Origin: Trypanosoma brucei | Lineage: Eukaryota | Direction: 5' to 3' | Assembly: GCA_000002445.1 (NCBI GenBank) | Contig: CH464491.1 | Span: forward strand, 4,416,001 to 4,480,000 | DNA: 64,000 nt | Shown here: in pieces, positions 3,401 through 36,001 of the stretch | Position numbering within the stretch: position 1 is the first letter of the stretch | Layout: every line of letters starts with the position of its first letter | Translations under genes and position numbers: made by a program | The notes under the pieces: model-generated | What the model was told of the DNA's origin: nothing | Seen by the model: the letters and a program-made list of their open reading frames with translations, nothing else | The model's database searches: none

Positions 3401-3744
3401 TATATTATTCTTAGCTTTTTTTATTATTACCTTATTTTTTTATTTTTCTCATTTTTTCATACTTACTTACATTTTTTGGTAATTTCTTTTTTCCTTCTTT
3501 TTTTCTCTTTTCCTTCGTTTTTTTTTGTTTTTTTTTTGATTCTTTAGATCTCCCTCCCCTCCCCTCCCTTTCCCATTGGAAATTACGGGACATCCAACAG
3601 GTTCAATAAAAAGGGGGAAAAGAAAGGAAGGCAGAAGGAACCTACGGAAAATACGCACAAAACTAAACTACAAAAAAAAGTAATAATAATAATAATAATA
3701 ACCCAGCACATGCCTAAACATGGACTTCCATTATCTCAAATGCA

Positions 3745-3810
3745 TAGGTGCATATGTATATATATTATATATATATATATTATATATATATATATATGTG
3801 TATTTATATA
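3745..3810. repeat. (TA)n-rich microsatellite in the spacer.
   Basis: atatatattatatatatatatattatatatatatatatat. Confidence 0.8.
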
Positions 3811-13539: not shown

Positions 13540-16185
13540 TCACTTCCCTACCTGGCGATGGTCGAGTAGCACCCAAAGCTGCTTCACCCACCGCACGGTC
13601 GCCTCCTGCGCGGCATCCCCACTCAATGCCTCTATGGCCATAAGAAAACACCGTTCCACAGCATCCATCACCTGCCCTAACCTTTCAGCCGCATGCGAAT
13701 TGTCAGCGACACGCTTCGCGAGGTCACCCTCCGGTACGTTGCCAACACATAACTGGTCCAGCACGGCGGCCTCAATAGTTTCGATGAAACATTCAGGAGT
13801 AACACCCATGACGGCAGATGGTCCCCCTACAGCAGCGGAGGGTCGAAAAACGCGCTGAAGTAACAGCAAACGGGAAACCACTAACGGAAGTGTAGCGAGG
13901 GCTGCACGTGACACTCCCTCAGGTGTCTCAAGCGCTTCCTCTGACGCGTTGTACCACATTGCCAACTGGTGAAGCTGTCCCTTAAGCACCATTGTACTTC
14001 TTCCCATAGCCCCTTGAGTGCTCGGCCCAAATGATATAGCCACACGAGGAACCTGGTGGAGGCAAACAGTCAAGTGCTCCCGCACCTCTTTGGTGAAGGG
14101 GTACACCAGTGTCACAGCAACCATCAGCCTTACAATAAGGCTGTCTGTGATCCGCCGCACGCTGTCAACTAGTGTGGGGGTCTGCGGATCGAACAAATAA
14201 TAGTAATGAGACATGAAATGCACTGTTTGACTCTGCAGTTGACTTATGCCCGCAGCCTCTTGACCGCACGCTCCGTCCACACACATAGACACAGAATCAA
14301 GCAGCAGCACCGAAACGGATCTGAAAAATGGGCGCACAACCTTTTCGCTAATTTTCTTTAGATTTATTGTGACTTCAAGAAGTTTTCTTTGTCTCTCTGC
14401 GACCAGCTTCCGCGTACTCACAGCAGATTCGTCACAGCACGCTCCCCCCGCCCCGTCGCATCCTCCGCCAGATGATTGCCACATATCGTCTCGACCCCCA
14501 ACGAATTCTCCCCTGTCTTCATCCTCCTCCCCCTCAGGCAACGAGGCAAGCATAACAGCAAAATCCATGCTGAGTTGTGTACAGGCGTTACTTATACATA
14601 TATGGAGCATTTGCAGCGTGTTAACGTCAGAGGACACCGAAGGAAGTGGGGGTAGAGGCCACCTCATACTTGTTTCCGTAACACGTTGCATGAATCCTGC
14701 GAGGCACTGCAACGTGCAAGCTAGTACCGTCGAAAGGGTTTGGGGGTCACGTTGATACTCCATCACATCTCGCATCGCCAGCGTGGCATAACTACGTACG
14801 TCTAACACGTGCGCGATGGCAGGAACCTGGGGACGCTGGAGGTCTACCGAGAGGTTGGGGAGTGGTTTGTTACCTCCGCTTGGAATTATGGAATTCAACC
14901 TTGAAATGACGCCGTGCAACCGCTCGCGGTGCCGATCCATAATTTGAGCACCAAAGCGCTCGTTTACCTCGCGCGTCACATGTGAAAGCCACATGCACCT
15001 CAGTTGCTCAACACCGCTAGGGAGACAAGCTCCGGCGCCTCCACCACCGCTGGTATTCGGGCGACCATTACTTGATGCATCCAACCCCATAAGTTGATCC
15101 AGCAATTCCAATAACTCTACCACATCGTCCAAAAAGGTGACGAGCAGTGAACGGTAGCGCAATATGTCGCCCGCCATTGCGTAGAAAAAATTGGGGCGCT
15201 TTTGTATGGCCTGCAGCCGCTCCCGTAACTTATCCGTGACAAAGTGCCAGTAGTCCCCAAGCACAGACGTGGGGTTATCCACAGCACTGAGGTACGGAAT
15301 TTGCGTGACGGGATCTGCTTTTTTCACAAGGACGCGCCACAACGCAATAACACTGCCCGTGTGCGTTGCCGTGGCCCTGAGGGCAGCCTGCAAATGAGAT
15401 GCAAGAACTTCGCAAGTTCGTGAGCCAACGTAATCAAAATCGCTGGTGGTGGCGGTACACTCATCATTAATTTCATTAGCTATTACCTGGATATCCAGTT
15501 CTCGCATAAGTGTCTTCATAACCTCTCGTTTCTGCTCGGTCATAAAGCCACTTATCACACGCGAAGCACTTCCCAAGGCAACGAAGCATTGTAAGGCGGT
15601 AGTGACATTGGATGCATCCCGGGAGTCCGCACGCCGCAGCATATCTTGTGCTCTGGACCGAATGACTGTCGCTGACCTCTCAACAACATCCATGCGAGAA
15701 CGCACCACGTCGATAGCCGCGATGTTTGCAGCCTGAAGAAGCTCCTCGACCTCCCGCATCGTTCGGGCAGCACGAGCAATGTCATCGGGAAGCAAACCCT
15801 TCAGTCGCGTTGTAAGGTTGATAAACCTAATGACACTCCGCAACGTATTTAGGGTGACGTTCGTGTTCCGCAGCTTCGTAATGCTCCCTTTGATGAGATG
15901 GTAAGGTTCGTAAATGGTGTGCCTGAGCCTGCTGGCGGAGTGCATAAGCGTAGCAGCAGCCTGGCGGACGGCGGCAGCGTCTCTTTGTGCGCAACTCGCA
16001 GCGGTCACCTGCCGAAGCATATCCTCCACATTCTCCGTAAGGATGTTATGCATCTCCTCCCGCACCGCTGCTGAACAGGAGGTGAGGCGCGATTGCTCCG
16101 TCTTACAACTTGAAGCATGGATAGCGTAGCGTAAGTAACCCTCCTCGTCAAAGTCCGGGCTCATAAGAATGCTGTCTGTAAACAT
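13540..16185 (-). CDS. COG5: Conserved oligomeric Golgi complex subunit 5 (COG5)-like.
   Basis: 881-aa ORF. The N-terminal DFDEEGYLRY plus ...IYEPYHLIKGSITKLRNTNVTLNTLRSVIRFINLTTRLKGLL... and ...ALQCFVALGSASRVISGFM... parallel human COG5 ([61 protein letters not shown]). Confidence 0.6.
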   Translation of the reverse strand: MFTDSILMSPDFDEEGYLRYAIHASSCKTEQSRLTSCSAAVREEMHNILTENVEDMLRQVTAASCAQRDAAAVRQAAATLMHSASRLRHTIYEPYHLIKGSITKLRNTNVTLNTLRSVIRFINLTTRLKGLLPDDIARAARTMREVEELLQAANIAAIDVVRSRMDVVERSATVIRSRAQDMLRRADSRDASNVTTALQCFVALGSASRVISGFMTEQKREVMKTLMRELDIQVIANEINDECTATTSDFDYVGSRTCEVLASHLQAALRATATHTGSVIALWRVLVKKADPVTQIPYLSAVDNPTSVLGDYWHFVTDKLRERLQAIQKRPNFFYAMAGDILRYRSLLVTFLDDVVELLELLDQLMGLDASSNGRPNTSGGGGAGACLPSGVEQLRCMWLSHVTREVNERFGAQIMDRHRERLHGVISRLNSIIPSGGNKPLPNLSVDLQRPQVPAIAHVLDVRSYATLAMRDVMEYQRDPQTLSTVLACTLQCLAGFMQRVTETSMRWPLPPLPSVSSDVNTLQMLHICISNACTQLSMDFAVMLASLPEGEEDEDRGEFVGGRDDMWQSSGGGCDGAGGACCDESAVSTRKLVAERQRKLLEVTINLKKISEKVVRPFFRSVSVLLLDSVSMCVDGACGQEAAGISQLQSQTVHFMSHYYYLFDPQTPTLVDSVRRITDSLIVRLMVAVTLVYPFTKEVREHLTVCLHQVPRVAISFGPSTQGAMGRSTMVLKGQLHQLAMWYNASEEALETPEGVSRAALATLPLVVSRLLLLQRVFRPSAAVGGPSAVMGVTPECFIETIEAAVLDQLCVGNVPEGDLAKRVADNSHAAERLGQVMDAVERCFLMAIEALSGDAAQEATVRWVKQLWVLLDHRQVGK

Positions 16186-22540: not shown

Positions 22541-25500
22541 TCATAGCGCTCCACGGGGTGGGCGTTGTTCCGAGCGGAGTGCCTGTACAAGTTTCCACGA
22601 GGCCAACCCACGCATGTGCTGCTGCATAACCACAACATATTGGTCCGCGATACTGGCACTATCACCTACAGAGCCTACCTTCTGTGTAGTAACTTGGTAA
22701 TAGTAGTGCCCGAGGCTAGCCCACAGATCCGCACCCTCGGGGGAGTCGCTCACAATGGCTGCCACGGCGGCCGCAATCTCCTCATCGTGTGCTTGAATGG
22801 AACCCCAGTAACGCTCCTTGGCGACGAGCCTCTCCTTCACCGACCGTCTAGCCTTGTACGAACGGAACGCACGCTGAACCTTCATTGCAGCTTCATCTAG
22901 CAGACACTCCGCATCACTATCCGTCACACGCTTCTCCTCCACGAGTGCCTTCCTCCTCTCAACCTCACGCCTGGCTAAATACATCCGCATGAAAGGCAGT
23001 ATCTTTTCGCATGCAGCACTGAGTCTGCGCCTCTCCTCCACGAGTGCCTTCCTCCTCTCAACCTCACGCCTGGCTAAATACATCCGCATGAAAGGCAGTA
23101 TCTTTTCGCATGCAGCACTATGTCTGCGTCTCTCCTCCACAAGCGATCTCCGCCTCTCAACCTCACACCTGGCTAAGTGCATCTGCATCGACGGCAATAT
23201 CTTTTCACACGCAGCACTATGTCTGCGTCTCTCCTCCACAAGCGATCTCCGCCTCTCAACCTCACACCTGGCTAAGTGCATCTGCATCAACGGCAATATC
23301 TTTTCACATGCAGCACTATGTCTGCGTCTCTCCTCCACGAGTGCCTTCCGCCTCTCAACTTCACGCCTGGCCAAATGCATCTGCATGAAGGGCAGTATCT
23401 TTTCGCATGCAGCACTGAGTCTGCGTCTCTCTTCCACAAGCGATCTCCGCCTCTGCAACTCCCTCCTAGCCACTGCACACAGGAGGAATGATTCAATAGT
23501 CGAGGATGGCTTTTCCAACACAGAGCACATACCCTCTTGCTGGGCCATGCGAGCTTCAATTGCATCCTTACGAGCCCTACGCTCCTGTTTGGCACGGAAG
23601 ATAAGGGCCAAGCCATTTAGCACTTCCAGTGCTTCTAGTGGTTCTTCGTTCCTTCGGTTGATAGTAGCCGCTGCACGACGGGAGGCTACCTCCTTCTTCG
23701 ACTGTATGATGCGCATGAAACCTTTGAGAACTTCAAGGGCATCACCTACATTCGAAACGCATTCTGGTTGAGGGCGCTCTGCAAACTGCCTCGGTGTTCT
23801 AGGTGGCATGCGGCAACTAACATGCATCATGCTAACCTTCGCACGCAAGAAAGACAAAACGACGTTTACGCGGCGCAGCCGCCGAAACTGGTCCGTGCCG
23901 TCCATAACCAGGCGAGAACATTTCTGAAGCTCCTTGTACTCCAGATCGGGTGACTCCGACCGATCTACCCCGATCCTGCAGTTCACGTAGTCGGCGAAAA
24001 GTTCCCGCAACACACGGTAGTGTAGGCGAGCAAGATATCCTCGTGCTAAGCGAGTGATTGCCAACGCCGCTTGGTCCCTTAAGTTATTGGCCTCTTCATC
24101 TTGTGACCGGTGTTGAGATTGCAAATTTGATGAGGACTCCGCTGATTTCGAGTACGTTCGCCTCGGGGCCACTGGTCGTTGCCGCATGAGTGGTGGACGA
24201 GGCAACAGCGTTAGCACCTCTTCCGCGGTTTCAGCCTCTGCAATCTTCCGCAAACGATATTCGTTTGCCTCCAAGCGACTGTTGCAGCAGTCATTGTAGA
24301 ACTTTATTTCATCCTTCCGCACTTGTCGCCACTTTTCTCTTTCTTCGGCTAGTGCGGCACCCAGGGCAGACTTCTCTTGGTGTCCCACCACCTCACACTC
24401 CCCAACAACATCAAAAGAGCGATCAATTCCTTCATGCCCCAAAGGCTTAACGATTTCTTCAGCCGAATGCCCACCATTATCCGGCCTCGCAAATTCTCCT
24501 ACAGGTTCATTAATATCTAGGTTTAGCTCCGTGGCCGACGGCTCAACACCTTCCAAGTACAATGCTGGCCGCTCCCCGGGCTCTGAATACATAGCATGCT
24601 CTTTTATCAATGACAATCCGACACGCTCCTCCGGAATAATAGGCGTAGCAAGGTGCTGCAACTCAGGTACAACACCTACATCCCCTGGAGAACACGGCAT
24701 CGTCAATTCCAACTTAACGCCTTCTGCGCGCGGGGTGGGTTTTTCTGGCACTTGCTGGCACGAGATGGCAGGTTCCTCTTGGACAGCTCCGCTGGCACTT
24801 CCCAATCCCCCGACCCCTGGCAGCCGCTCGATTTGCTCGTCCCCAGCCAGTGGCAACAGTCGCCCTGCACCGTTAGCTAACGGTTTTGGTAGCCTTGAAT
24901 CCTCAGCGGGTGACGGTAGCAGCTGACAAACGCTCCTGTGAGAGGTCAGAGACCCTTTTACCTTTGGCATCACGTCAAGTGGTGTTGGAGATAACGCGGA
25001 GTGATGCCTGTCATTTGTACACCCGTCGGGTAGTGACCGACGCATAAATGGAACACCTTCCAATCCCCCTCTCACGCTGGAGGGCTCATGAACTCTATGG
25101 TGTCCAGAAACGACCGTTGACGAACGGTTAGCCTCTTCAAGATCGCGCTCCCTCCGCACAAACTCCTGGACCTCCACTGCCATTTGATAAAGTGATCGGC
25201 CCAGTGAAAGCCGGACGAAGTAAGCGCGGCCAATTCTTTGCATAGTGAACGCAAACGCACTAAGACGCGAGTCCAAGAGTTGTCTTCTGCGTTCCTTTTT
25301 CATACGCTTCAGGAGAGATTTCGACCGATAGAGACGGTACGCACGCTGAATCTTCGAAGCTGCCCGACTCTGCAGGCAATGACCACGAATGCGCCTTGCT
25401 GCGTTCTCACGAGCAACATCGAGCAGAGGCCCTGCATTTCTCGCCACAATAATCCGCCTGCCAAAGGCCTGAAGCTTCTTGGCAGCATCGCACCGCCGCT

Positions 25501-28500
25501 GGTGTTCACGAAGTCTCTCTTCACGCGCGGCCCGCAGTTCCCTCATTTTATTGAGCTCCTTTCTAGAAATATACAAACGCCACGCCTTTTGGATTTTCCG
25601 CGCGGCGGATAAGTAGCGAGCTTCCAGATGCCTTCGCCGGAGTCGAGCCGCCCTCAGCCTCGCCTCCCGTGTCTGCTGCTCTGCCCTTCGTCTCCTCCAC
25701 TGGCTCTGTATGACCGTGGCCGCAACTTCTTGCCGTTCCCTCAGGGCCACCTCGTTTTTAACAAGTTGATGCATTTCTCGCAGTTTCTCCACCCTTCGGG
25801 TTGCCATAACCTTGCGCCACCACGTCTGCAGTCGGAAGGCAGCAGAAGATGCGTTATTCTTCAAGAACTGCCTCCGCGCTAGACGCCGTCGGGCCCGCCA
25901 CTGCCGCGCACAGCACTGGATACGCACAGCGGCCCTGTTTATTTCATTGGCAAGAACGTCACGGTTCTTGTAACGTGCGGTAGAACCCGATCTTATACTC
26001 AGGTGCCTCCTAAAAGTCCTTTGAATCTTACGGGCTGCTATTGACCTTCTTACCCCATCCAGTACACGGTCGCGGGCGCTTTTGGACTTTACTGCCTCGA
26101 ACAACTGTCGAGCCTTGAAAGCACGGTAAGCTCTTTGAATGGTAACCGCACAGCCCGACTTGCGCCACAAATCTTCCTCATCGAACAAAAGCATATCTAA
26201 GCGATCAACAACGTACGTAACAAGATTTGCTCCAGGTGGGAGGCCCTGGATCCTTCTTGACGGCGCATCAACGGACAATGGGGGGACGCCCGGTCCCATA
26301 ACACTGGATTTGGAAATGGGCGACCTGCCTTGTTTATCCTTGGCGGCAGAAAATGGAGAGGCCTTTGGTTGAGGAAATTTCCTTACAGGAGACCCCGTAT
26401 CGTTTGAAGGTGCATTGGGTGATAGTCGCCCGACGGCGCTGTGGGCATCAGCGGCATGCTGACCCCGGCGCGCAGCCCCCTCAACCTCCATGGTAACAGT
26501 ATGGAGTTTCTTCTTAGTTGCGTCGTGAGTGGCAGCGGCCTGATGAGTCGGACGCGAGGATGGTGAAGATTCGCGAGCTGAAGAAGATACCCTCCTGCCA
26601 GTCTTGTTACCTGTACCACCGGCTTGCTGATTGTGCAGAAATGGAGCATCAGGATCCGCAGCAACGGATTGCATTTTCCTTCCCGAACTGTCGCGAGCAG
26701 CAGGCGACTGCGCAACCGGTCGGGTGCGCTCTGCATTGGGGGATAACTTCCTGCCGACAGCGCTGCGGCCCCCAACAGCCTGATGGGTCGGACGCGAGGA
26801 TGGTGAAGATTCGCGAGCTGAAGAAGATACCCTCCTGCCAGTCTTGTTACCTGTACCACCGGCTTGCTGATTGTACAGAAATGGAGCATCAGGATCCGCA
26901 GCAACGGATTGCATTTTCCTTCCCGAACTGTCGCGAGCAGCAGGCGACTGCGCAACCGGTCGGGTGCGCTCTGCATTGGGGGATAACTTCCTGCCGACAG
27001 CACTGCGGCCCCCAACAGCCTGCTGAGTCGGACGCGAGGGCGCTGACGGCTCCACAGCAGCAGACTGCGTCCTTCCTTTGGGACTGTTACGTTGACCTGG
27101 GGTCCTCTGATTCGAGCCGGTTGCTCCCACACTTACCGGCGAAGACTGAGCATTCGGTTGTGAGAGGGAGATGTTTGACCTCATCGAACCCTTCATTGGT
27201 GGTCTACATTCAGATCGACTGGCACCACTCTTCGCATTGGACTTTGTGTGCACCGACTCATTGTCGGCAAAACCTGCACCTTTCCCTTGGGACCCGACAT
27301 CACCAGGTCGTGCCGTAGCTTCCCGTTTATATGGCATTCTCGTAGCGGCGACGGGAGACCTTGTAGCCACTGAGAGCGCAACGCCACCTTTATTTGAAAC
27401 CCTCTCATTGTTTTTGGTCAAAGATTTTGACTGTTCACCCACATTCGCCCCACGGTGGTGCTCGGAGGGGCCACCAGACTCGCGTAACGTAGCCCTCGAG
27501 CCCTGCGAAATGGGTGGAAGACGACTAGCATTCGGCGAAGCTCCACCCGATTTCGTTGAATTACCGCCCTTCAAACCGCTGCCATGGGAAGCAGACCCGC
27601 CATTTGTCTGGCTCTGCCATGCAGCAGGCCTCGACAGTGATGTTTTCGAATTTACCCCGGGTGCTGTTGCCGCCGCTGCTGCGGCACTCGGTGGATGACC
27701 GGCGTCAGCACGGGCCGGACGCGAGATGCTACGCTTCGCAACGGTTTCCTTGGCACTCACCGCGAAAGGGTGAGGAAAGATGTCCACACGATGGGTCCTA
27801 GATGCAGCATCCCGACCACTGGGTGAACGTTCCCTGCTGCAAGACCGCGGACTAACAAACAAGGTGTGTCCGCAGGATGAGCGGGGTGAGTTCGTACCCG
27901 TCAAAGCTGAATTACCCGGTCGACATTCGTGAAGCACCATGACAAACCGCTGCATATTACTTTCGATCGTTCTTGTGACCTCACTCCTCCTACTGATCGT
28001 ATTCTGAGCCAAACCCAGCGCCAACCGATACTCTTCATGAGCACGTGGGGGGTCGATCAACTCCAGAGCCATAGCGAGGTTGTGGTGCGCCACTGCTAGC
28101 AAAGAAGGGTCCTCAGGATTGGGCCCAAGACTTTGTATCGCACACACCGCACTATGCGCGGCTTCTTCACATAACCTCAGTTGCACCTGCACAGCACTAA
28201 TGTTTAGGAACGCTACGGGGGATTGTTGCCCCGTGCATTGCATCGATTGCTGCATGTAGTCCAGGGCAGTAGTAAAATGCCCCCGGTGGCGCTCCATGCA
28301 ACCGTGGTTGTTCAGGGTCACGCCGCGCAGTAGTCGGCGGCGCTCATCGTCTTTGCGCAAGGGAAAGGAACCCTCTCCTGTCATCTCCATGGCGTAGCCA
28401 AAGAGAGGTGTAGCAACGTCATATTTTCCTTCCTTGAACAATTTTACACCGAGAACATTGCACTTCATCACAACACGCTCCGCAGCGTCACATGCCTCCT

Positions 28501-28720
28501 TTAGGAGCTCAGGGGATGACGACCCCGTTCCATACTCCTTGCAGCGTATCTGGAGCGCAGTCTCCATCAGTTGCAAGCATTCCATGTCGTTGCCTCCAGC
28601 CTCAAGCGTGGATGCACGGTACTCCATCTTCCGCGCATCCTGCAGAGTCTCCTTCCCAGTAAGACCCGAAGAGGGGTGATGCGGGCCATCTTTGCGTGCA
28701 CTAGACGCTGCGATGGACAT
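22541..28720 (-). CDS. Giant TPR + multi-IQ-motif protein (2059 aa) with three internal tandem repeat arrays (ASPM/IQ-calmodulin-binding-like architecture).
   Basis: N-terminal TPR-like region (first ~250 aa). 80-aa Ser/Pro-rich repeats x2.2. More than 12 IQ motifs (IQRAYRAFKARQ, AARKIQRTFRRH, AAVRIQCCARQWRARRR, AATVIQSQWRRRR, AARKIQKAWRLY, ASKIQRAYRLYRSK...). C-terminal 33-aa repeats x5.4 (ACEKILPFMQMHLARREVERRKALVEERRRHSA). Confidence 0.7.
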   Translation of the reverse strand: MSIAASSARKDGPHHPSSGLTGKETLQDARKMEYRASTLEAGGNDMECLQLMETALQIRCKEYGTGSSSPELLKEACDAAERVVMKCNVLGVKLFKEGKYDVATPLFGYAMEMTGEGSFPLRKDDERRRLLRGVTLNNHGCMERHRGHFTTALDYMQQSMQCTGQQSPVAFLNISAVQVQLRLCEEAAHSAVCAIQSLGPNPEDPSLLAVAHHNLAMALELIDPPRAHEEYRLALGLAQNTISRRSEVTRTIESNMQRFVMVLHECRPGNSALTGTNSPRSSCGHTLFVSPRSCSRERSPSGRDAASRTHRVDIFPHPFAVSAKETVAKRSISRPARADAGHPPSAAAAAATAPGVNSKTSLSRPAAWQSQTNGGSASHGSGLKGGNSTKSGGASPNASRLPPISQGSRATLRESGGPSEHHRGANVGEQSKSLTKNNERVSNKGGVALSVATRSPVAATRMPYKREATARPGDVGSQGKGAGFADNESVHTKSNAKSGASRSECRPPMKGSMRSNISLSQPNAQSSPVSVGATGSNQRTPGQRNSPKGRTQSAAVEPSAPSRPTQQAVGGRSAVGRKLSPNAERTRPVAQSPAARDSSGRKMQSVAADPDAPFLYNQQAGGTGNKTGRRVSSSARESSPSSRPTHQAVGGRSAVGRKLSPNAERTRPVAQSPAARDSSGRKMQSVAADPDAPFLHNQQAGGTGNKTGRRVSSSARESSPSSRPTHQAAATHDATKKKLHTVTMEVEGAARRGQHAADAHSAVGRLSPNAPSNDTGSPVRKFPQPKASPFSAAKDKQGRSPISKSSVMGPGVPPLSVDAPSRRIQGLPPGANLVTYVVDRLDMLLFDEEDLWRKSGCAVTIQRAYRAFKARQLFEAVKSKSARDRVLDGVRRSIAARKIQRTFRRHLSIRSGSTARYKNRDVLANEINRAAVRIQCCARQWRARRRLARRQFLKNNASSAAFRLQTWWRKVMATRRVEKLREMHQLVKNEVALRERQEVAATVIQSQWRRRRAEQQTREARLRAARLRRRHLEARYLSAARKIQKAWRLYISRKELNKMRELRAAREERLREHQRRCDAAKKLQAFGRRIIVARNAGPLLDVARENAARRIRGHCLQSRAASKIQRAYRLYRSKSLLKRMKKERRRQLLDSRLSAFAFTMQRIGRAYFVRLSLGRSLYQMAVEVQEFVRRERDLEEANRSSTVVSGHHRVHEPSSVRGGLEGVPFMRRSLPDGCTNDRHHSALSPTPLDVMPKVKGSLTSHRSVCQLLPSPAEDSRLPKPLANGAGRLLPLAGDEQIERLPGVGGLGSASGAVQEEPAISCQQVPEKPTPRAEGVKLELTMPCSPGDVGVVPELQHLATPIIPEERVGLSLIKEHAMYSEPGERPALYLEGVEPSATELNLDINEPVGEFARPDNGGHSAEEIVKPLGHEGIDRSFDVVGECEVVGHQEKSALGAALAEEREKWRQVRKDEIKFYNDCCNSRLEANEYRLRKIAEAETAEEVLTLLPRPPLMRQRPVAPRRTYSKSAESSSNLQSQHRSQDEEANNLRDQAALAITRLARGYLARLHYRVLRELFADYVNCRIGVDRSESPDLEYKELQKCSRLVMDGTDQFRRLRRVNVVLSFLRAKVSMMHVSCRMPPRTPRQFAERPQPECVSNVGDALEVLKGFMRIIQSKKEVASRRAAATINRRNEEPLEALEVLNGLALIFRAKQERRARKDAIEARMAQQEGMCSVLEKPSSTIESFLLCAVARRELQRRRSLVEERRRLSAACEKILPFMQMHLARREVERRKALVEERRRHSAACEKILPLMQMHLARCEVERRRSLVEERRRHSAACEKILPSMQMHLARCEVERRRSLVEERRRHSAACEKILPFMRMYLARREVERRKALVEERRRLSAACEKILPFMRMYLARREVERRKALVEEKRVTDSDAECLLDEAAMKVQRAFRSYKARRSVKERLVAKERYWGSIQAHDEEIAAAVAAIVSDSPEGADLWASLGHYYYQVTTQKVGSVGDSASIADQYVVVMQQHMRGLASWKLVQALRSEQRPPRGAL
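22930..23465. repeat. 99-bp tandem repeat, ~5.4 copies, in-frame inside the giant TPR/IQ gene.
   Basis: The motif tctcctccacgagtgcc recurs at 22933, 23032, 23131, 23230, 23329 and 23428. It encodes 33-aa repeat units. It also generates spurious plus-strand ORFs 22989..23771 and 23110..23388. Confidence 0.9.
26525..27045. repeat. 240-bp tandem repeat, ~2.2 copies, in-frame inside the giant TPR/IQ gene.
   Basis: cctgatgRgtcggacgcgaggatggtgaagattcgcgagctg sits at 26539 and 26779, with a partial third copy at 27019. It encodes the 80-aa repeat SSPSSRPTHQAVGGRSAVGRKLSPNAERTRPVAQSPAARDSSGRKMQSVAADPDAPFL. Confidence 0.9.
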
Positions 28721-29083
28721 CAGTTCGTGGGATCACTAACCTGCTTGACCTTCAACCACTAGACAGCTCCGTACAAACAGCTACCCCTCCCCGTCCAACC
28801 GCCCAGACGCTTCTACACCCTTCACTCCGTTTATTCTATTACGTCGGGTCCTTCTCGATTGGAGTGACTTCCTCTGGAGACCTAATACCACCGAGTACAA
28901 ACGATGAGATATTCTGCGAAATGCAACACACACACACACACACACGCACACACTTTCCTGAGCGTCACCCACACCTGCAACTATAAATACAAAGGCGGTA
29001 CCTCACAGGATATTCTTTCTCTAGTCCTCCCCTTGTTAAGAAGAAAAGAGCTTTGACACAGAGAAGCGGGAGAGGTGAAAAGG
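27690..29083. repeat. Segmental duplication, copy 1 (5' 1032 bp of the TPR/IQ CDS plus ~365 bp upstream).
   Basis: Near-identical to 30136..31537. The only differences seen are a few substitutions and the (CA)n length. Confidence 0.9.
28923..28952. repeat. (CA)n microsatellite upstream of the TPR/IQ gene. Its duplicate is at 31367-31404 with a longer tract.
   Basis: caacacacacacacacacacgcacacac versus caacacacacacacacacacacacacgcacacac. Confidence 0.85.
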
Positions 29084-30101
29084 GGGAAATGCGCGTCAAC
29101 AACAGATGAACCGTCAATCGAGCTGCGTAGAGAAACATTTGGGTAAAAGAGAAATAGGAAAGCAACCAACTCATGGAGCACCACAAAGATATATACATGT
29201 ACATGTCACAAAGTAGTACATACGCACCCACCGGTCCGCGGGGGGATAGAAAATGAAGCAAAAAGAAAAACATACACTGAGAGGGAAGCCCGACACAATC
29301 GAAAACATTCAGGAGGACTAGCTGAGGTCACTATGAGTATCACCACAGTGTCCCTCTACCCCTTATAGGGAAACAATGCCATATTGCATACTGGCAACAA
29401 AAAAAAAATAACATGTGCAAGTACCTCACCGGGTGTGCAACGTGTGGAGCGCAAGTGCTGACGCGTACTATGGTAAGAAGCACACAAGGCCTGGGCTACG
29501 GATGGAAGTTACCGCACAAGGCTCACTCGCATGCGCCAATGCAAGGGACAAACAGCGGCCAACACACCAACGCTACGTGCACCTCCTGCTCAGAGAGATC
29601 TAAGAAGTTTCCTTCTGTCTTCACTTGCAGCTGCCTCCTACATCCGGACAGAAGATTACGTCCTACGAATGCAGTGTAAGGTGCCAGCCCCGTCCGCAAC
29701 TTTAGCCGGGTACAAATACATTGGTCTAAGTTATGAAATTCAAACATTCGTAATCTGTTCAAGTCCCCCTTCATGAGAAAACACACACGAGCAGTAAACA
29801 TTTAAAAAAAATTATGAAGCTCACACTCCCCGTGTACCGCTCCTTCCGACAAAAAAACTATTATCGGCTCCACTTGTAGCGCACATGTAAGTGAACGTGA
29901 TGGATGTAACGATGAGTACAACAAATTTAGGTCCACTTACCGCAGCTCAAAAAACAGTGGCAGCAATTTATAGACGAAACATGGAGAATATAAGCAAAGG
30001 TGTCGCCATCATTTGAACTCCATAACCGTGCCAAATACAGCATAAATGATAGCTTCGTCAGTTAGTTTCTACCTCGTGGAGCCCTGTGAGGTTTAAACGC
30101 A

Positions 30102-31166
30102 CTAATTCATTGGTGATAACGACGTTAAACGCTTTGGTGGATGGCCGGCGTCAGCACGGGCCGGACGCGAGATGCTACGCTTCGCAACGGTTTCCTTGGC
30201 ACTCACCGCGAAAGGGTGAGGAAAGATGTCCACACGATGGGTCCTAGATGCAGCATCCCGACCACTGGGTAAACGTTCCCTGCTGCAAGACCGCGGACTA
30301 ACAAACAAGGTGTGTCCGCAGGATGAGCGGGGTGAGTTCGTACCCGTCAAAGCTGAATTACCCGGTCGACATTCGTGAAGCACCATGACAAACCGCTGCA
30401 TATTACTTTCGATCGTTCTTGTGACCTCACTCCTCCTACTGATCGTATTCTGAGCCAAACCCAGCGCCAACCGATACTCTTCATGAGCACGTGGGGGGTC
30501 GATCAACTCCAGAGCCATAGCGAGGTTGTGGTGCGCCACTGCTAGCAAAGAAGGGTCCTCAGGATTGGGCCCAAGACTTTGTATCGCACACACCGCACTA
30601 TGCGCGGCTTCTTCACATAACCTCAGTTGCACCTGCACAGCACTAATGTTTAGGAACGCTACGGGGGATTGTTGCCCCGTGCATTGCATCGATTGCTGCA
30701 TGTAGTCCAGGGCAGTACTAAAATGCCCCCGGTGGCGCTCCATGCAACCGTGGTTGTTCAGGGTCACACCGCGCAGTCGTCGGCGGCGCTCATCGTCTTT
30801 GCGCAAGGGAAAGGAACCCTCTCCTGTCATCTCCATGGCGTAGCCAAAGAGAGGTGTAGCAACGTCATACTTTCCTTCCTTGAACAATTTTACACCGAGA
30901 ACATTGCACTTCATCACAACACGCTCCGCAGCGTCACATGCCTCCTTTAGGAGCTCAGGGGATGACGACCCCGTTCCATACTCCTTGCAGCGTATCTGGA
31001 GCGCAGTCTCCATCAGTTGCAAGCATTCCATGTCGTTGCCTCCAGCCTCAAGCGTGGATGCACGGTACTCCATCTTCCGCGCATCCTGCAGAGTCTCCTT
31101 CCCAGTAAGACCCGAAGAGGGGTGATGCGGGCCATCTTTGCGTGCACTAGACGCTGCGATGGACAT
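30102..31166 (-). pseudogene. Truncated paralogue of the TPR/IQ gene. A 354-aa TPR-domain-only ORF ends 10 codons into unique spacer (…HPPKRLTSLSPMN*). It may be an expressed TPR-only protein or a gene fragment.
   Basis: Its first 344 codons are identical to gene 22541..28720 except for 3 aa changes (RRRLL>RRRRL, FTT>FST, RSP>RLP). It has its own duplicated upstream region. Confidence 0.5.
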
Positions 31167-31371
31167 CAGTTCGTGGGATCACTAACCTGCTTGACCTTCA
31201 ACCACTAGACAGCTCCGTACAAACAGCTACCCCTCCCCGTCCAACCGCCCAGACGCTTCTACACCCTTCACTCCGTTTATTCTATTACGTCGGGTCCTTC
31301 TCGATTGGAGTGACTTCCTCTGGGGACCTAATACCACCGAGTACAAACGATGAGATATTCTGCGAAATGCA

Positions 31372-31406
<35 letters not shown>

Positions 31407-31537
31407 CTTTCCTGAGCGTCACCCACACCTGCAACTACAAATACAAAGGCGGTACCTCACAGGATATTCTCTCTCTAGTCCTCCCCTTGTTAAGAAGAAA
31501 AGAGCTTTGACACAGAGAAGCGGGAGAGGTGAAAAGG
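30136..31537. repeat. Segmental duplication, copy 2.
   Basis: Matches 27690..29083 base for base across the CDS and the upstream region, including the (CA)n microsatellite. It diverges at both ends (30136 and 31537). Confidence 0.9.
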
Positions 31538-31666
31538 AGGGGTTAAGCAAACATTCATAAAGTCGCATATTCAATTTAAATGCATCACAACAGAAGCTCC
31601 TTCCTTCCAGCACTTTTCGCTTAAAACTCAAACAGTGAGTATGGTTGCGTTTCGCATCTGCCCTGC

Positions 31667-34342
31667 TCACACCTTTGGCCCCACACCCAACATGCACTCT
31701 TTTCCTTCTCGCTTTTGTGCCACCAAATGTCGTTTGGTGCTGAGAACCCGCACCACCACGTGCCTCCCAGGCAGGACAGTGTCCCTTTTAAGCACAGACA
31801 CTTCTCCCCCCTCCACCAAATATTTGGTATCCACTGCTTCAAACCGCACCAACTTGCCGTCCAACAGGTTCGACCGTAGCAATGCATCAAAAACCTCCCC
31901 CGCACAGGTTCCTCCCTTGAATGGAAAACAGTGGGGAAACGAATTTAGTGGGCGCTCGATCGCATCAACTGGATACACTAAGTGACCGGGGCACAGAGAG
32001 AGAGCAGCGGCCAGGACCGCCTGAACGCCTGTTGTTGTATCAGGGTGCATTGGGCTAAAAAACTCACGCAACTCCACCAGGGCCTTCATCGCCCTTTTCC
32101 TTACGGCGTCCGTGACGTTTGCAGGGGCCCCATCGACTTCTTCGAAGCTGTGATCACCGGGCACGTAGCGAACAGCGCCCACCTGTCGTAAGAAAAGGAG
32201 ATTGCATTCCATTTTGGCGGACATTTGAACAAGGGTTTCGTTCGGGTAGCGCTCCTTCAGGGTACAAATCAACTTGTCCGCCGCGCACCGCATATCTGCC
32301 TTGTTGAGCGCTACAACTATGGGAAACCGCAGATGGACAAATGTAGCCACAAGCAAGTGCAGCTCGGCAGCCCCCCACGCTGGCAGGCGCCGAACCAGCT
32401 CCACTTCAGTAGAGATTCCAAGACACCGCAGCAATGCATCGATGGATGACGGTGGACTGTGGTACCCCGTGAACACCGTTCGTATTTTCAATGGTTTTCG
32501 AACTACGGCAGCCCACTGTGCACGGAGATTGTCATATATCCAGCTGTGCAATTCTCCTCGAACCCACATGATGTCGTCGAAGGTGGATCCTTCCCCTGGT
32601 GCACACGCTGATCCGTCCGCGTAAGTCGCGCCTGCACCATCAACAATGTGTACGAGAACATCTGCATCGCACAAATCGTTGAGGAATCGATTCCCCTTTC
32701 CCTTACCCCGGTAGGCACCTTGCACGAGACCAGCGACATCCTTCACCACTATGGGGTGTCGCCGGTGTGGAGCTCCAAAAGTAGTAACATGACCATACTT
32801 GGCGCCACACTGTCCCGTGCTTGACGGCGAGGGTTGTGACAAACTACACGGACAGAAAATGGGACCGAAACCACAGCCGACATTGGGGTCGATTGTGGTG
32901 AAAGGGAACGCTGCAACCCTTGCAGCCTTGCTCTCGTTATCGGGATTAGTTACCGCATTGTAAAACGTGCTCTTCCCTGCCGACGGTTTGCCAATGAGGC
33001 CGATAGTAAACTCGAGACTCCTACCCCTCCCACCAGCATCGTAACAACCTCCACCTTCGCAATCCCCTCTGCCATACGGCCGAAAAGACGGAGAACCACC
33101 CGCAAGCACTTCTTGCGCACGTCGGTGCGACTCGGCAATGCATGCACTCCTCGCACCTTCACTGTCATCCTCCTCCCACAGCCAATCATTCACTTTTCGT
33201 TCTTTCCATTGCTCTCCCGTCGCAACACCAGCACTGTCGTGCATTTCCCCTCCCTCCGCGAAAACGGACTTCAGGAAATCAAGAGCACCAACTGCTTGTT
33301 CTCCGGTGAACATTATCGCAGGTAGCAACATACCACTTTTGCCCTCAGGTCCCTCTCGCATGAACGCTGTGGTGTCAGAAACTAGCTTTGCCCTCCAGCG
33401 CTCGTAGAAAACATGGTGATTGGAAGGTCCGCCCACGATATCGAACTTTGGAATTTCAGCAGGGTATCCCTTTGACAAAGCCACACACAGTCGTAGCGCT
33501 GCGAGTGGGCTGCCCTCCAGGTCTCCGTCCGCGCAGTTCAACAGCAACGGCAGCGACACGGTGGTCATCTTTCCACGATGAACGCATTCCTCGCCGTAAA
33601 CACATGAAATCATTTCTAACTCCTCCTCGCAAGCCGCGGTAAGAGTACTATCCCCACCATCATTACCAGGGTTTCTCTGCGCAATGCGCTCAAAGAATGA
33701 CTTCAGAGACATGACAATATTCTGTAGCGTTGGGAAGCTGTGTGCGTGCTCATGCCACAAAACGTCAGCGTGAGGTCGACATGCATCCGCGAAAGATGCG
33801 CTCTCCGCTGGGTCCACAACCCCATCTTTCCTGCCCACGATATGCAGGGAAGGTAAAGGTCCCAGGAAACCATCGTTTTCAGCATCGTAACGAGCACTGT
33901 CTTTAAATGCTGAGGCAAGCCCAGGGAAGGTACGACGGGGATCTGGTGTCGCAGCTAATATAAGTCCCTTCAGCGGGGGCCCGTAGCCGTCACCGCCGTG
34001 AAGCTCACGAAGCATTACGTAACGGGCGGCGACAAGGCCACCCTGAGAAAATCCCAAAATGACGTCGTAGCGCATCCCCTCAGCAGCCATGTGGCGCTTC
34101 ACCACCGCGTCCCCGATACTGTAATCATCATCCGCTTCGCTGGGCTCTTCGCCGCACGGCTGCCTGCACCACGAATACGTTGCAATGGAGTTGGAGCCCG
34201 TGTGGTCATGCGGTAACGGATAGGGGGCATCCACAAAATCAAATTCTGCGACAGAAGAAAGCTTAACACACAACCTATTCAGCTGATGCTCAAATATTTC
34301 ACCTGTTTGGCCGAACCCGTGCAGACATAAAACTTTCACCAT
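31667..34342 (-). CDS. Multidomain protein: N-terminal FSH1/OVCA2-type serine hydrolase + RWD-like domain + Obg-like ATPase of the YchF/OLA1 family + C-terminal TGS domain.
   Basis: ORF 31667..34426. The likely start is MVKVLCLHGFGQTGEIF (ATG 34342). Hydrolase motifs LCLHGFGQ and GFSQGG. G1 GLIGKPSAGKSTFYNAVT. G2 FPFTTIDPNVG. G3 VKDVAGLVQGAYRGKGKGNRFLNDLCDADVLVHIVD. NKAD. The C-terminal LVRFEAVDTKYLVEGGEVSVLKRDTVLPGRHVVV is TGS-like. Confidence 0.7.
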   Translation of the reverse strand: MVKVLCLHGFGQTGEIFEHQLNRLCVKLSSVAEFDFVDAPYPLPHDHTGSNSIATYSWCRQPCGEEPSEADDDYSIGDAVVKRHMAAEGMRYDVILGFSQGGLVAARYVMLRELHGGDGYGPPLKGLILAATPDPRRTFPGLASAFKDSARYDAENDGFLGPLPSLHIVGRKDGVVDPAESASFADACRPHADVLWHEHAHSFPTLQNIVMSLKSFFERIAQRNPGNDGGDSTLTAACEEELEMISCVYGEECVHRGKMTTVSLPLLLNCADGDLEGSPLAALRLCVALSKGYPAEIPKFDIVGGPSNHHVFYERWRAKLVSDTTAFMREGPEGKSGMLLPAIMFTGEQAVGALDFLKSVFAEGGEMHDSAGVATGEQWKERKVNDWLWEEDDSEGARSACIAESHRRAQEVLAGGSPSFRPYGRGDCEGGGCYDAGGRGRSLEFTIGLIGKPSAGKSTFYNAVTNPDNESKAARVAAFPFTTIDPNVGCGFGPIFCPCSLSQPSPSSTGQCGAKYGHVTTFGAPHRRHPIVVKDVAGLVQGAYRGKGKGNRFLNDLCDADVLVHIVDGAGATYADGSACAPGEGSTFDDIMWVRGELHSWIYDNLRAQWAAVVRKPLKIRTVFTGYHSPPSSIDALLRCLGISTEVELVRRLPAWGAAELHLLVATFVHLRFPIVVALNKADMRCAADKLICTLKERYPNETLVQMSAKMECNLLFLRQVGAVRYVPGDHSFEEVDGAPANVTDAVRKRAMKALVELREFFSPMHPDTTTGVQAVLAAALSLCPGHLVYPVDAIERPLNSFPHCFPFKGGTCAGEVFDALLRSNLLDGKLVRFEAVDTKYLVEGGEVSVLKRDTVLPGRHVVVRVLSTKRHLVAQKREGKECMLGVGPKV

Positions 34343-36001
34343 TATATTTAAATGTATTTTTTTGTCTTGGACCTGCATGGAAGAAAAACAAAAATATGAA
34401 TACATACACGACGTAAACAAATGCACCCGGAGAGTTATAGTCGTGCTCTTTTTTTTGTTGTTTGTAAGGCAGCCCGTTGCCTCACTTCAACCTATGTATA
34501 GCGACGAAAGGATTTACGTGTCTTTTTCACATATGCTTATTGGCATATCCAACTGTGATGAACTGTCAACGCGGCGAATTCAAACGGCCACCACATGCGG
34601 ATTTTCAGCCGCTATCATGTCAGAACCGCGGAAAAACTTGGAAAATGGAACGAGATCCTTCAATGATTTGGGAATGGAATGGAATGTAAAGAAGCTCCGT
34701 CACCTTCATTTCATCCCTTCCCTCCCTTTTGTTTCCTGGCGATTTCGCTTTTCAATAAGGATTTTCCCGACCTCCGCAGGACCTAAGAAATTTCGGGGCT
34801 AACAGCCAAAACGATAACGGCCTGTAGGAAGTTTATAAAATATATAACCAACAAATGAACAAATGGGCATTGGCGCGACTAACAACTGTCCAACTACGTT
34901 TGAGTTATACGGTTTGTTCCTCCTCTCCGCGTCTACTCGTGGTTGTTAAAACAGTCACCGCACTGCAGCTGCCGCGTAGCATTCACATTACTTCTACCGT
35001 TGTTTCCTTCCTCCATCTCCTCCACTGTTCTACGGAAAATGGCATTGCCATCATCATCATCATCATCTGTTTTAAAGGCAATTCGATACAGCTTAAACAA
35101 TGAAGCATAGATTTGCGTGTACATGTGCCTAGGTAAGCAACTATGAAAGAAAAGTAGGAGAACGATAACACCAAATGACCCTGCCAACGGGCAAAAGAGA
35201 TAACGTAACTGCGGTTTGCCACCTCTAAAGAAACAAATAAACAGAAATATAACGCACAATGCGCGCGCACTATTCGGGAAACTGAGTAAGCGGTTGGCAA
35301 TGCGCATCGTCGTGAAAACGTACATCTATCCATCTATAGATGAGGAGGCATGCTTAGACGAATTTATTGATTTAATTTGGTTTTATATTGGTCCAATTTA
35401 CTCTTTACTTCTCCTCATGAGTTGTTATGACGGCATATACTGGCAAAAGCGTACCGCCTCTACTTCCATGCCACCGAGAGAAAATATCAAACAGACGAAC
35501 TAGGGGGGAGGGTCCGCAACACGATAAAATATAATACATTACACCAAAAAAGAAAACAATGCAGAAAGTAGTTTGGGAAAATATCAGAGAGTTGAAAATA
35601 AAAATACCAGAAACAAAAAACAAAACGCCATCATCGCAGGCACGACCGCGCGGGGCGGAACCCTGGACCCCCTTCCCGCCTTCCTCTCCACGTTATCATT
35701 CTCCGTTACACGCTTTCTCAACGTCATCTCCTCCACCACTCCCGTCCTTTAGCCACCCTATCGCCCCCAGTTCAACCCAAAGAACGCGCAGAGGCCTTCA
35801 GCCACCTTCCCTGATAGGACGAGTAAACATGATGAAGCATCACCAACGAAATGAATTAATGAAACCAAGCTTTATAAGTACAGATATATATGTATGCATG
35901 TATGTATGTGCAGTCGCACACTGTCAACCATATGTTGGCGGCACGAATTGTTTGGCTGAAACTAAGTTGATTACACCACCACCTCACAATGCCAATGGTG
36001 G

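What the first reader, a model, noticed from the sequence alone, without database searches (positions are those of the whole stretch)
27690..31537. Near-identical 1.4 kb segmental duplication creates a truncated TPR-only copy of the giant TPR/IQ gene
27690-29083 and 30136-31537 match almost base for base, separated by 1052 bp of unique spacer. The second copy carries the first 344 codons (the TPR domain) of the 2059-aa gene plus ~370 bp of its upstream region, including the (CA)n microsatellite. It terminates 10 codons into unique sequence. Only 3 amino-acid differences suggest very recent duplication, ongoing gene conversion, or an assembly artefact at a repeat. If real, the fragment keeps its upstream processing signals and could be expressed as a stand-alone TPR protein, possibly a dominant-negative or neofunctionalised form.
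Basis: seen in the sequence. Interest (0 to 1): 0.55.

Follow-up and report, generated by a model that had tools for sequence, protein, structure and literature searches.

The report
Truncated FLAM7 gene copy in T. brucei
The 1.4-kb repeat is a real, old partial duplication of the flagellar gene FLAM7 on Trypanosoma brucei chromosome 11; gene conversion keeps most of it nearly identical to its parent, it leaves an intact 354-codon TPR-only reading frame, and this is an ordinary kind of event for this genome.

Summary
Window 27690-29086 and 30136-31541 are direct repeats, 98.7% identical, separated by 1049 bp found nowhere else in the window. The window is T. b. brucei TREU927 chromosome 11, and the 2059-aa gene is FLAM7 (Flagellar Member 7).

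The same copy-spacer-copy layout, with the same junctions and the same 10-codon tail, occurs in two other assemblies: T. b. gambiense DAL972 and T. equiperdum. DAL972 already annotates the 354-aa ORF as a hypothetical protein. This rules out an assembly artefact and a very recent duplication.

In the first ~1150 bp the two copies group by strain: eight sites carry strain-specific states shared by both copies, against about 0.008 expected from parallel mutation. That indicates recurrent gene conversion. The last ~250 bp next to the breakpoint diverges in the short copy, mostly by amino-acid changes.

T. cruzi and T. melophagium have one FLAM7, with the proline-synthesis gene P5CS where T. brucei has the short copy and spacer.

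The copy keeps the polypyrimidine tract, the 5' UTR and the whole folded TPR domain, so an mRNA is likely. Whether a protein is made or has a function was not tested. This is a new member of a known kind, of modest interest.

The parts
22541..28720 (-). Full-length FLAM7 (Flagellar Member 7) coding sequence, 2059 aa: N-terminal TPR domain, a long low-complexity and repeat-rich middle, and IQ motifs
   Evidence: ORF found and translated. Pfam finds IQ and weak TPR matches. The sequence is identical to T. b. brucei TREU927 EAN80634.1 / XP_829746.1 / UniProt Q380Z7 'Flagellar Member 7'.
27690..29086 (-). Repeat copy A (parental): 366 bp of FLAM7 upstream region plus codons 1-344
30136..31541 (-). 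Repeat copy B (derived): 375 bp of the same upstream region plus codons 1-344
   Evidence: Present at the collinear position in L003 (12808-14207) and L004 (12866-14256).
30102..31166 (-). 354-aa ORF of copy B: 344 FLAM7 codons, 10 spacer-encoded codons (KRLTSLSPMN) and a stop
   Evidence: The ORF is intact, with the same length and tail, in DAL972 (annotated CBH18785.1 / XP_011781049.1 / D0AAT4) and in T. equiperdum, where it is not called as a gene. The AlphaFold2 model shows a helical TPR solenoid at residues ~20-265 (mostly pLDDT >90) and a disordered tail at 266-354.
29087..30135 (.). Spacer S, 1049 bp, 45% GC, found once in the window. It supplies the stop codon and the presumed 3' UTR of the short ORF and contains several T-rich tracts.
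   Evidence: It is 98.4-98.8% identical in DAL972 and T. equiperdum. No P5CS remnant was detected, and there is no meaningful similarity to the T. cruzi intergenic DNA.
31487..31541 (-). Polypyrimidine tract and first downstream AG dinucleotides of copy B: the presumed trans-splicing signal. The duplication starts exactly at this tract.
   Evidence: Sequence read. Its role as a splice signal is inferred from established trypanosome mRNA processing and was not measured.
29033..29086 (-). The same polypyrimidine tract and AG sites in copy A: the presumed FLAM7 trans-splice signal, which would also set the poly(A) site of the short-ORF transcript
   Evidence: Sequence read; the function is inferred.
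31372..31407 (.). (AC)18 microsatellite in the copy B upstream region. The copy A counterpart lies at about 28926-28953 and is 8 bp shorter.
   Evidence: Its length differs among all six copies of the three strains.
31542..31666 (-). 125 bp of unique sequence between the stop codon of the upstream gene and the start of copy B
31667..34426 (-). Upstream neighbour, a serine hydrolase FSH1 / RWD / Obg-like GTPase fusion protein. It was used as the synteny anchor.
   Evidence: Pfam matches. It clusters with TREU927 EAN80635.1, DAL972 CBH18786.1 and T. equiperdum RHW68267.1.

Best explanation
This is a genuine DNA-level partial duplication of the 5' end of FLAM7 on T. brucei chromosome 11. It arose once, before T. 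b. brucei, T. b. gambiense and T. equiperdum diverged. The copied segment runs from the polypyrimidine tract upstream of FLAM7 through the 5' UTR to codon 344. It now sits about 2.4 kb upstream of its parent in the same polycistronic unit, between the FSH1/GTPase gene and FLAM7. Other trypanosomes carry the P5CS gene in that interval.

The first ~1.15 kb of the two copies is repeatedly homogenised by gene conversion. This is why they look almost identical despite the age of the event. The ~250 bp next to the breakpoint escapes conversion and drifts in the short copy.

The following steps are inferred, not shown. The copy carries the same splice-acceptor region as FLAM7 and lies inside a constitutively transcribed unit. 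It is therefore probably processed into an mRNA with the FLAM7 5' UTR and a different, spacer-derived 3' UTR of roughly 0.9 kb. That mRNA would encode a ~39-kDa protein made of the complete TPR domain plus a disordered tail. I put about 0.7 on a mature mRNA being made and about 0.4 on a stable protein with a function of its own. Otherwise it is a relic kept open by conversion from its functional parent.
For: The repeat and ORF anatomy are shown.

Identity of the locus: the 2059-aa ORF equals TREU927 FLAM7, and the neighbouring gene clusters with T. brucei group proteins.

Other assemblies: window 34500-26539 aligns as a single block with DAL972, and 34500-23131 as a single block with T. equiperdum. 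Both blocks span copy B, the spacer and copy A. Each genome has its own internal repeat pair. The DAL972 contigs were assembled de novo with Phrap from Sanger read pairs (PMC2854126).

Single origin: the upstream and downstream junctions and the 10-codon tail are identical in all three.

Gene conversion: 8 sites have strain-specific states shared by both paralogs, only 1 site is fixed between paralogs, and about 0.008 parallel hits are expected without conversion. In columns 1-1150 the paralogs differ by 1-2 substitutions (gambiense, equiperdum) or 8 (TREU927), against 10-13 between TREU927 and the other strains. In columns 1151-1412 the A copies are nearly identical (0-1 differences) while the B copies differ from them by 2-12.

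Lineage specificity: T. cruzi and T. melophagium have GTPase, P5CS and a single FLAM7 in that order. Only one TPR match occurs in the T. cruzi and L. braziliensis loci. T. brucei lacks P5CS according to PMC5289646.

Not a processed retrocopy: the copy includes the polypyrimidine tract upstream of any splice site and has no poly(A) at its 3' junction.

Domain completeness: the conserved region is residues ~20-260, and the AlphaFold2 model has a confident TPR solenoid at 20-265.
Against: No transcript or protein data were available, so expression is inference only.

ORF integrity across three strains is weak evidence for selection, because conversion from FLAM7 would itself repair most of the ORF.

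In the unconverted tail (codons 266-344) the changes specific to the short copy are mostly non-synonymous: about 8 changed codons against 3 silent changes. The same stretch of FLAM7 has no amino-acid change. This looks like relaxed constraint.

The ORF is not annotated in the TREU927 GenBank record or in the T. equiperdum assembly.

The origin of the spacer is unknown. The idea that it is the former P5CS 3' UTR has no sequence support.

Whether T. congolense or T. vivax share the duplication could not be determined. T. congolense has a 273-aa TPR-only gene model next to the GTPase gene, but its contig could not be fetched.
Confidence: 0.85

Rival explanations
1. Assembly artefact: a mis-joined repeat, or two haplotypes placed in series, so that only one copy really exists.
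For: The ~1% divergence, including a microsatellite length difference, is similar to allelic or inter-strain divergence at this locus.
Against: The same copy B, spacer, copy A order occurs with the same junctions in DAL972 (Sanger reads, Phrap, manually finished) and in T. equiperdum GCA_003543875.1. Each carries its own substitutions and microsatellite lengths. A short-read Logan contig from another sample (ERR7929162) ends 7 nt inside the repeat edge, as expected at a true repeat boundary.
Confidence: 0.02
2. A very recent duplication whose copies have simply not had time to diverge, with no gene conversion.
For: Within-strain paralog divergence is low, at 0.5-1.0%.
Against: The duplication, with identical breakpoints and tail, is shared by three taxa, so it is older than their split. 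Even so, paralogs within a strain are closer than orthologs between strains over the first 1150 columns. Eight sites show strain-specific states in both copies.
Confidence: 0.03
3. A non-functional relic: a truncated pseudogene whose reading frame stays open only because conversion from FLAM7 keeps overwriting it. Any transcript would be a by-product of polycistronic transcription.
For: The unconverted tail accumulates mostly non-synonymous changes, while the same region in FLAM7 is unchanged. The ORF is absent from two of the three annotations. Homologues of the TPR domain are nearly all long proteins (1100-3400 aa) with the domain at the N-terminus, so a stand-alone form is not an established architecture.
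Against: The ORF has no frameshift or stop in any of the three genomes, including the ~270 bp tail and junction that conversion does not protect. The duplicated unit contains the complete folded domain and the full set of upstream processing signals. The tail is predicted to be disordered, so neutral-looking change there does not argue against a functional TPR domain.
Confidence: 0.45
4. A functional young gene: a stand-alone TPR protein that competes with or complements FLAM7 for the ligand of its TPR domain, under separate post-transcriptional control through its different 3' UTR.
For: The ORF is intact in three taxa. The TPR solenoid is complete and of the peptide-binding KLC/LGN type. The processing signals are retained and the 3' UTR is distinct. 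In trypanosomes mRNA levels are set largely by 3' UTRs (established knowledge).
Against: There is no expression data. The tail evolves neutrally. ORF maintenance is confounded by gene conversion.
Confidence: 0.4

Closest known systems
Tandem and segmental gene duplicates of T. brucei that evolve in concert (Jackson 2007, BMC Evol Biol 7:54, PMC1855330)
   Same: The copies are direct repeats in one polycistronic unit. Paralogs within a strain are more alike than orthologs between strains. Homogenisation coexists with divergence where a structural difference, here the breakpoint, separates the copies.
   Different: Only the 5' third of a region is involved: upstream sequence plus 344 of 2059 codons, not a whole-gene array that raises dosage. 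The two copies are separated by 1 kb of unrelated DNA, and the product is a truncated protein. I could not check whether this pair appears in that survey.
FLAM7 (Flagellar Member 7), a flagellar protein of trypanosomatids (TREU927 XP_829746.1 / Q380Z7; L. infantum LinJ.32.3350, cited among proteins normally found in the flagellar membrane or matrix fraction in PMC4559404)
   Same: The first 344 residues are 99% identical, including the whole conserved TPR domain and the FPHPF motif in the linker. The 5' UTR and splice-acceptor region are the same.
   Different: The short copy lacks the 1715 C-terminal residues, including all IQ motifs and internal repeats. It has a different C-terminal decapeptide and a different 3' UTR.
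DAL972 gene CBH18785.1 / XP_011781049.1 / UniProt D0AAT4, 'hypothetical protein, conserved', 354 aa
   Same: It is the positional orthologue, with the same length, junction and tail and 98% identity.
   Different: It carries copy-B-specific substitutions in codons 266-341 that the TREU927 copy lacks. It has no functional annotation.
TPR domains of kinesin light chain and LGN/Pins (structural analogues only)
   Same: The model is an all-helical TPR solenoid of about 10 helices. The best Foldseek matches are KLC1/2, LGN and axonemal TPR chains, and Pfam gives sub-threshold TPR_12/TPR_10 matches.
   Different: The similarity is generic: TM-scores 0.2-0.35 and 14-19% identity. No specific ligand or family membership can be inferred.

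Membership tests
Segmental (partial-gene) duplication evolving in concert by gene conversion | Two copies in direct orientation with sharp homology boundaries | tested here: met
   27690-29086 versus 30136-31541, 98.7% identical, with identity collapsing outside the edges.
Segmental (partial-gene) duplication evolving in concert by gene conversion | Present in independent assemblies with the same junctions | tested here: met
   DAL972 and T. equiperdum loci; DAL972 assembly method.
Segmental (partial-gene) duplication evolving in concert by gene conversion | Paralogs within a genome are closer than orthologs between genomes, and derived states are shared by both paralogs of a lineage | tested here: met
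   Eight concerted sites against about 0.008 expected. The distance matrices group copies by strain in columns 1-1150 and by paralog in columns 1151-1412.
Segmental (partial-gene) duplication evolving in concert by gene conversion | Absent from outgroups (derived state) | tested here: met
   T. cruzi and T. melophagium each have a single FLAM7 with P5CS upstream of it. The closest outgroups, T. congolense and T. vivax, were not testable.
FLAM7 protein family (for the 354-aa product) | Homologous N-terminal TPR domain | tested here: met
   99% identity to FLAM7 residues 1-344. The domain is conserved in T. congolense, T. rangeli, Leishmania and Angomonas.
FLAM7 protein family (for the 354-aa product) | Long C-terminal region with IQ motifs | tested here: not met
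   Pfam finds IQ motifs only in the 2059-aa protein. The short ORF ends at residue 354.
FLAM7 protein family (for the 354-aa product) | Flagellar localisation | not testable with these tools
   This needs tagging or proteomics with the diagnostic C-terminal peptides.
Assembly artefact (false duplication) | The duplicate is absent from independent assemblies of the same or sister strains | tested here: not met
   It is present in both other assemblies examined.
Processed retrocopy | Starts at the spliced-leader addition site, ends in poly(A), and lacks upstream intergenic sequence | tested here: not met
   The copy begins at the polypyrimidine tract upstream of the candidate AG acceptors. The 3' junction reads CCACC|AAAGCGTTTAACG, with no A-run.
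Decaying pseudogene | Frameshifts or premature stops, and neutral substitution pattern | tested here: inconclusive
   There is no frameshift or stop in three genomes. The unconverted tail nevertheless shows about 8 non-synonymous against 3 synonymous changes. Conversion confounds the rest of the ORF.

The most novel reading that the evidence does not exclude
The 354-aa ORF is a young gene, so far seen only in the T. brucei group and born at the site where P5CS was lost. It would be expressed from FLAM7's own 5' signals but under a different 3' UTR. Its product, a free TPR domain, would modulate FLAM7 function in the flagellum, for example by competing for the TPR ligand. Gene conversion would keep the binding surface matched to that of FLAM7.
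Probability: 0.25. Interest if true: 0.5.

Novelty: new member of a known kind. Interest (0 to 1): 0.3.

Why it matters
The practical value is for annotation and experiments.

- The reference-strain ORF seems to be missing from the TREU927 GenBank annotation.
- Short reads, RNAi fragments, N-terminal tagging constructs and peptides aimed at the first 344 codons of FLAM7 will also hit the short copy. FLAM7 experiments therefore need to take it into account.
- The locus gives a clean small example of conversion homogenising most of a duplicate while the breakpoint-proximal edge diverges.
- It marks the chromosomal position where P5CS lies in other trypanosomes and is absent in T. brucei, the gene whose absence makes T. 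brucei a proline auxotroph.

If the short protein is expressed, it would be a natural TPR-only variant useful for dissecting FLAM7. Nothing here challenges current understanding.

Tried and rejected
- Exact-sequence look-ups of the window's own proteins found no contig on record. The organism was identified through the cluster of the neighbouring gene and of FLAM7 instead.
- The T. congolense contig could not be fetched. The third homologue search, with FLAM7 residues 345-2059, returned only the query's own cluster and an unnamed 1759-aa protein lacking the TPR domain. The duplication therefore could not be dated relative to T. congolense or T. vivax.
- I searched for a P5CS remnant in the spacer and the whole window with tblastn, using T. 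cruzi P5CS and the L. braziliensis aldehyde dehydrogenase domain. Nothing scored better than E ~1.
- I searched for a source of the spacer. It has no other copy in the window. Against the T. cruzi intergenic DNA only a pyrimidine-tract match appeared, which I judged to be low complexity. I rejected a whole-gene tandem duplication followed by internal deletion, because the spacer shows no similarity to the region downstream of FLAM7.
- Rfam found no RNA family in the window.
- A PDB sequence search with FLAM7 gave no hit. Foldseek gave only generic TPR matches.
- Literature searches for the T. brucei FLAM7 gene ID, or for any mention of the short copy, were unproductive. The original FLAM paper is not held.
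- The promoter/terminator scan was not used, because it does not apply to a trypanosome.


Full report
**Observation**

A repeat search and a self-BLAST of the window confirm a direct repeat. Copy A is 27690-29086 and copy B is 30136-31541. They are 98.72% identical over 1406 columns, with 9 mismatches, 2 gap openings and a bit score of 2488. A base-by-base alignment with flanks shows that identity ends abruptly at both edges. Inside the repeat the differences are 9 substitutions, an 8-bp length difference in the (CA)n tract and a 1-bp indel at the upstream edge. The 1049-bp spacer (29087-30135) matches nothing else in the window, even with a word size of 7.

All large ORFs in the window are on the minus strand. 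Read on that strand, copy A is the 366 bp upstream of a 2059-aa ORF (22541-28720) plus its first 344 codons. Copy B is the same upstream region (375 bp) plus the same 344 codons. Its frame continues for 10 spacer-encoded codons (KRLTSLSPMN) to a stop, giving a 354-aa ORF at 30102-31166. The two proteins differ at three positions: 130, 150 and 299.

**What the locus is**

The 2059-aa protein has IQ motifs and a weak TPR signal. It is identical to T. b. brucei TREU927 EAN80634.1 / XP_829746.1, which UniProt (Q380Z7) names Flagellar Member 7. The upstream neighbour (31667-34426) is an FSH1 hydrolase / RWD / Obg-like GTPase fusion. It clusters with TREU927 EAN80635.1, DAL972 CBH18786.1 and T. equiperdum RHW68267.1. 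The window is therefore TREU927 chromosome 11.

FLAM7 and the GTPase gene have consecutive GenBank protein accessions, and the exact 354-aa sequence is absent from a 15-billion-protein collection. I infer that the short ORF is not annotated in the TREU927 GenBank record. In T. b. gambiense DAL972 it is annotated as CBH18785.1, 'hypothetical protein, conserved', 354 aa. A Leishmania flagellar proteome paper cites FLAM7 among proteins normally found in the flagellar membrane or matrix fraction (PMC4559404).

**Real or artefact**

I fetched the syntenic loci of DAL972 (L003) and T. equiperdum GCA_003543875.1 (L004) through the neighbouring gene. Window 34500-26539 aligns to L003 as one block at 98.75%. 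Window 34500-23131 aligns to L004 as one block at 98.87%. Both blocks run through copy B, the spacer and copy A. Each locus has its own internal repeat pair, at 98.2% and 99.5% identity.

The upstream junction lies at the start of the polypyrimidine tract and the downstream junction lies within codon 344. Both junctions and the 10-codon tail are the same in all three genomes. The DAL972 contigs were assembled de novo with Phrap from Sanger read pairs, with repeats inspected manually, and only then ordered against the 927 genome (PMC2854126). A Logan short-read contig from another sample (ERR7929162) ends 7 nt inside the repeat edge, as expected at a genuine repeat boundary. The artefact explanation is rejected. 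A duplication younger than the split of these taxa is rejected too.

**Why the copies are so similar**

I aligned the six copies, two from each of three genomes, and classified the variable sites.

- Eight sites have a state shared by both paralogs of one strain or clade and different in the others: columns 72, 111, 168, 255, 299, 822, 828 and 1108.
- Only one site (column 1277, codon 299 S/L) separates A from B in all three genomes.
- Four more sites are shared by the B copies of gambiense and equiperdum only. All four lie in the last 230 bp.

Without gene conversion, the concerted pattern would need identical parallel mutations. From the singleton counts I expect about 0.008 such sites, against 8 observed.

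The distance matrices agree. In columns 1-1150 the paralogs differ by 2 (gambiense), 1 (equiperdum) and 8 (TREU927) substitutions, against 10-13 between TREU927 and the other strains. In columns 1151-1412 the three A copies differ by 0-1, while the B copies differ from them by 2-12.

So the upstream region and the TPR-coding part are homogenised by recurrent conversion, while the edge next to the breakpoint escapes it. This is the behaviour described for T. brucei tandem duplicates in general (PMC1855330).

**Origin**

In T. cruzi (L005) and T. melophagium (L006) the gene order is GTPase, then P5CS (AA_kinase + Aldedh, 751-752 aa), then a single FLAM7, then an LRR gene. L. braziliensis has an aldehyde dehydrogenase-domain gene upstream of FLAM7. 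Only one match to the short protein exists in the T. cruzi and L. braziliensis loci. The duplication is therefore derived.

It also occupies exactly the interval where P5CS lies elsewhere. T. brucei has been reported to lack P5CS and to be a proline auxotroph (PMC5289646). No P5CS remnant is detectable in the window, and the spacer has no informative similarity to the T. cruzi intergenic DNA. The idea that the copy replaced P5CS and left its 3' UTR behind as the spacer therefore remains conjecture.

In T. congolense the GTPase protein (CCD13766.1) and a 273-aa TPR-only gene model (CCD13765.1) have consecutive accessions on one contig. This suggests that P5CS was already gone from this position in the common ancestor with T. 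congolense. I could not fetch that contig, so I cannot tell whether the 273-aa model is a truncated copy or a fragment of a split FLAM7 model.

The copy is not a processed retrocopy. It includes the polypyrimidine tract upstream of any splice acceptor, and it has no poly(A) at its 3' junction.

**What the short ORF could do**

Alignment with kinetoplastid homologues shows that the conserved domain spans residues ~20-260, followed by a poorly conserved linker that contains an FPHPF motif. An AlphaFold2 model gives a confident 10-helix TPR solenoid at residues 20-265, mostly with pLDDT above 90, and a disordered tail at 266-354. Foldseek returns only generic TPR analogues, such as kinesin light chain, LGN and axonemal TPR chains, with TM-scores of 0.2-0.35. 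Across 1.84 billion representative proteins, homologues of this domain are almost all long proteins of 1100-3400 aa with the domain at the N-terminus. A stand-alone form is therefore not an established architecture.

The duplicated unit starts exactly at the polypyrimidine tract and contains the first AG dinucleotides after it, at 31506 and 31487 in copy B and at 29052 and 29033 in copy A. Trypanosome genes are transcribed polycistronically, and trans-splicing is coupled to polyadenylation of the upstream gene (established knowledge). I therefore infer that the short ORF is matured into an mRNA with the FLAM7 5' UTR and a spacer-derived 3' UTR of about 0.9 kb. None of this was measured.

The evidence on selection is equivocal. 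The ORF is intact in all three genomes, but conversion would maintain most of it regardless of function. In the unconverted tail the changes specific to copy B are mostly non-synonymous, while FLAM7 has no amino-acid change in the same stretch. I put about 0.7 on a mature mRNA and about 0.4 on a functional stand-alone protein.

**Verdict**

The functional speculation remains open. The feature is a new, apparently undescribed member of a well-known class: partial gene duplicates evolving in concert in T. brucei. It is already annotated in one sister genome. Its interest is modest and lies mainly in annotation, in experimental design around FLAM7, and as a scar marking the locus where P5CS was lost.

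Noticed in passing
window 29087-31666; L005 13129-15387; L006 13262-15517: The short FLAM7 copy and its spacer occupy the interval where T. cruzi and T. melophagium carry P5CS (glutamate 5-kinase plus gamma-glutamyl phosphate reductase). T. brucei lacks P5CS and is a proline auxotroph (PMC5289646). No remnant of the gene is detectable. Consecutive accessions in T. congolense suggest the gene is absent from that position there too.
   Followed up: partly
window 26538-27039 and 22933-23459: FLAM7 contains a 240-bp tandem repeat (2.1 copies) and a 99-bp tandem repeat (5.3 copies). FLAM7 is 2059 aa in TREU927, 2139 aa in DAL972 (+80 aa, one extra 240-bp unit) and 1993 aa in T. equiperdum (-66 aa, two fewer 99-bp units). 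Repeat copy number is therefore polymorphic.
   Followed up: partly
window 30102-31166: FLAM7 and the GTPase gene have consecutive protein accessions in the TREU927 GenBank annotation, and the exact 354-aa sequence is in no public protein set searched. The DAL972 orthologue is annotated. This looks like an annotation gap in the reference record.
   Followed up: partly
L001 10001-11833 and 12109-16524; P0001; P0207: FLAM7 gene models are split between the TPR domain and the rest in several other species. L. braziliensis M2904 has 610 aa plus 1471 aa. T. congolense has a 273-aa TPR-only model. An unnamed 1759-aa homologue lacks the TPR domain. These could reflect frameshift errors in the low-complexity linker or real breaks.
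   Followed up: no
L003 about 14013-14024 (alignment columns 1218-1229): Copy B of DAL972 has six substitutions within 12 bp, changing SSC to LFH at codons 281-283. This looks like one complex mutation rather than independent hits.
   Followed up: no
window 30208-30222 (residues 316-320 of the short ORF) and the same residues of FLAM7: A short FPHPF motif inside the otherwise unconserved, disordered linker is conserved between T. brucei and L. braziliensis. It is included in the duplicated fragment and may be a linear binding motif.
   Followed up: no
window 1-8000: This region is markedly AT-rich (32-42% GC, against about 50% elsewhere). It has one 467-aa ORF (4743-6146) with no Pfam match.
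   Followed up: no
window 57086-57321: A 36-bp tandem repeat lies inside the 1004-aa AIR9-like LRR protein gene (56923-59937).
   Followed up: no
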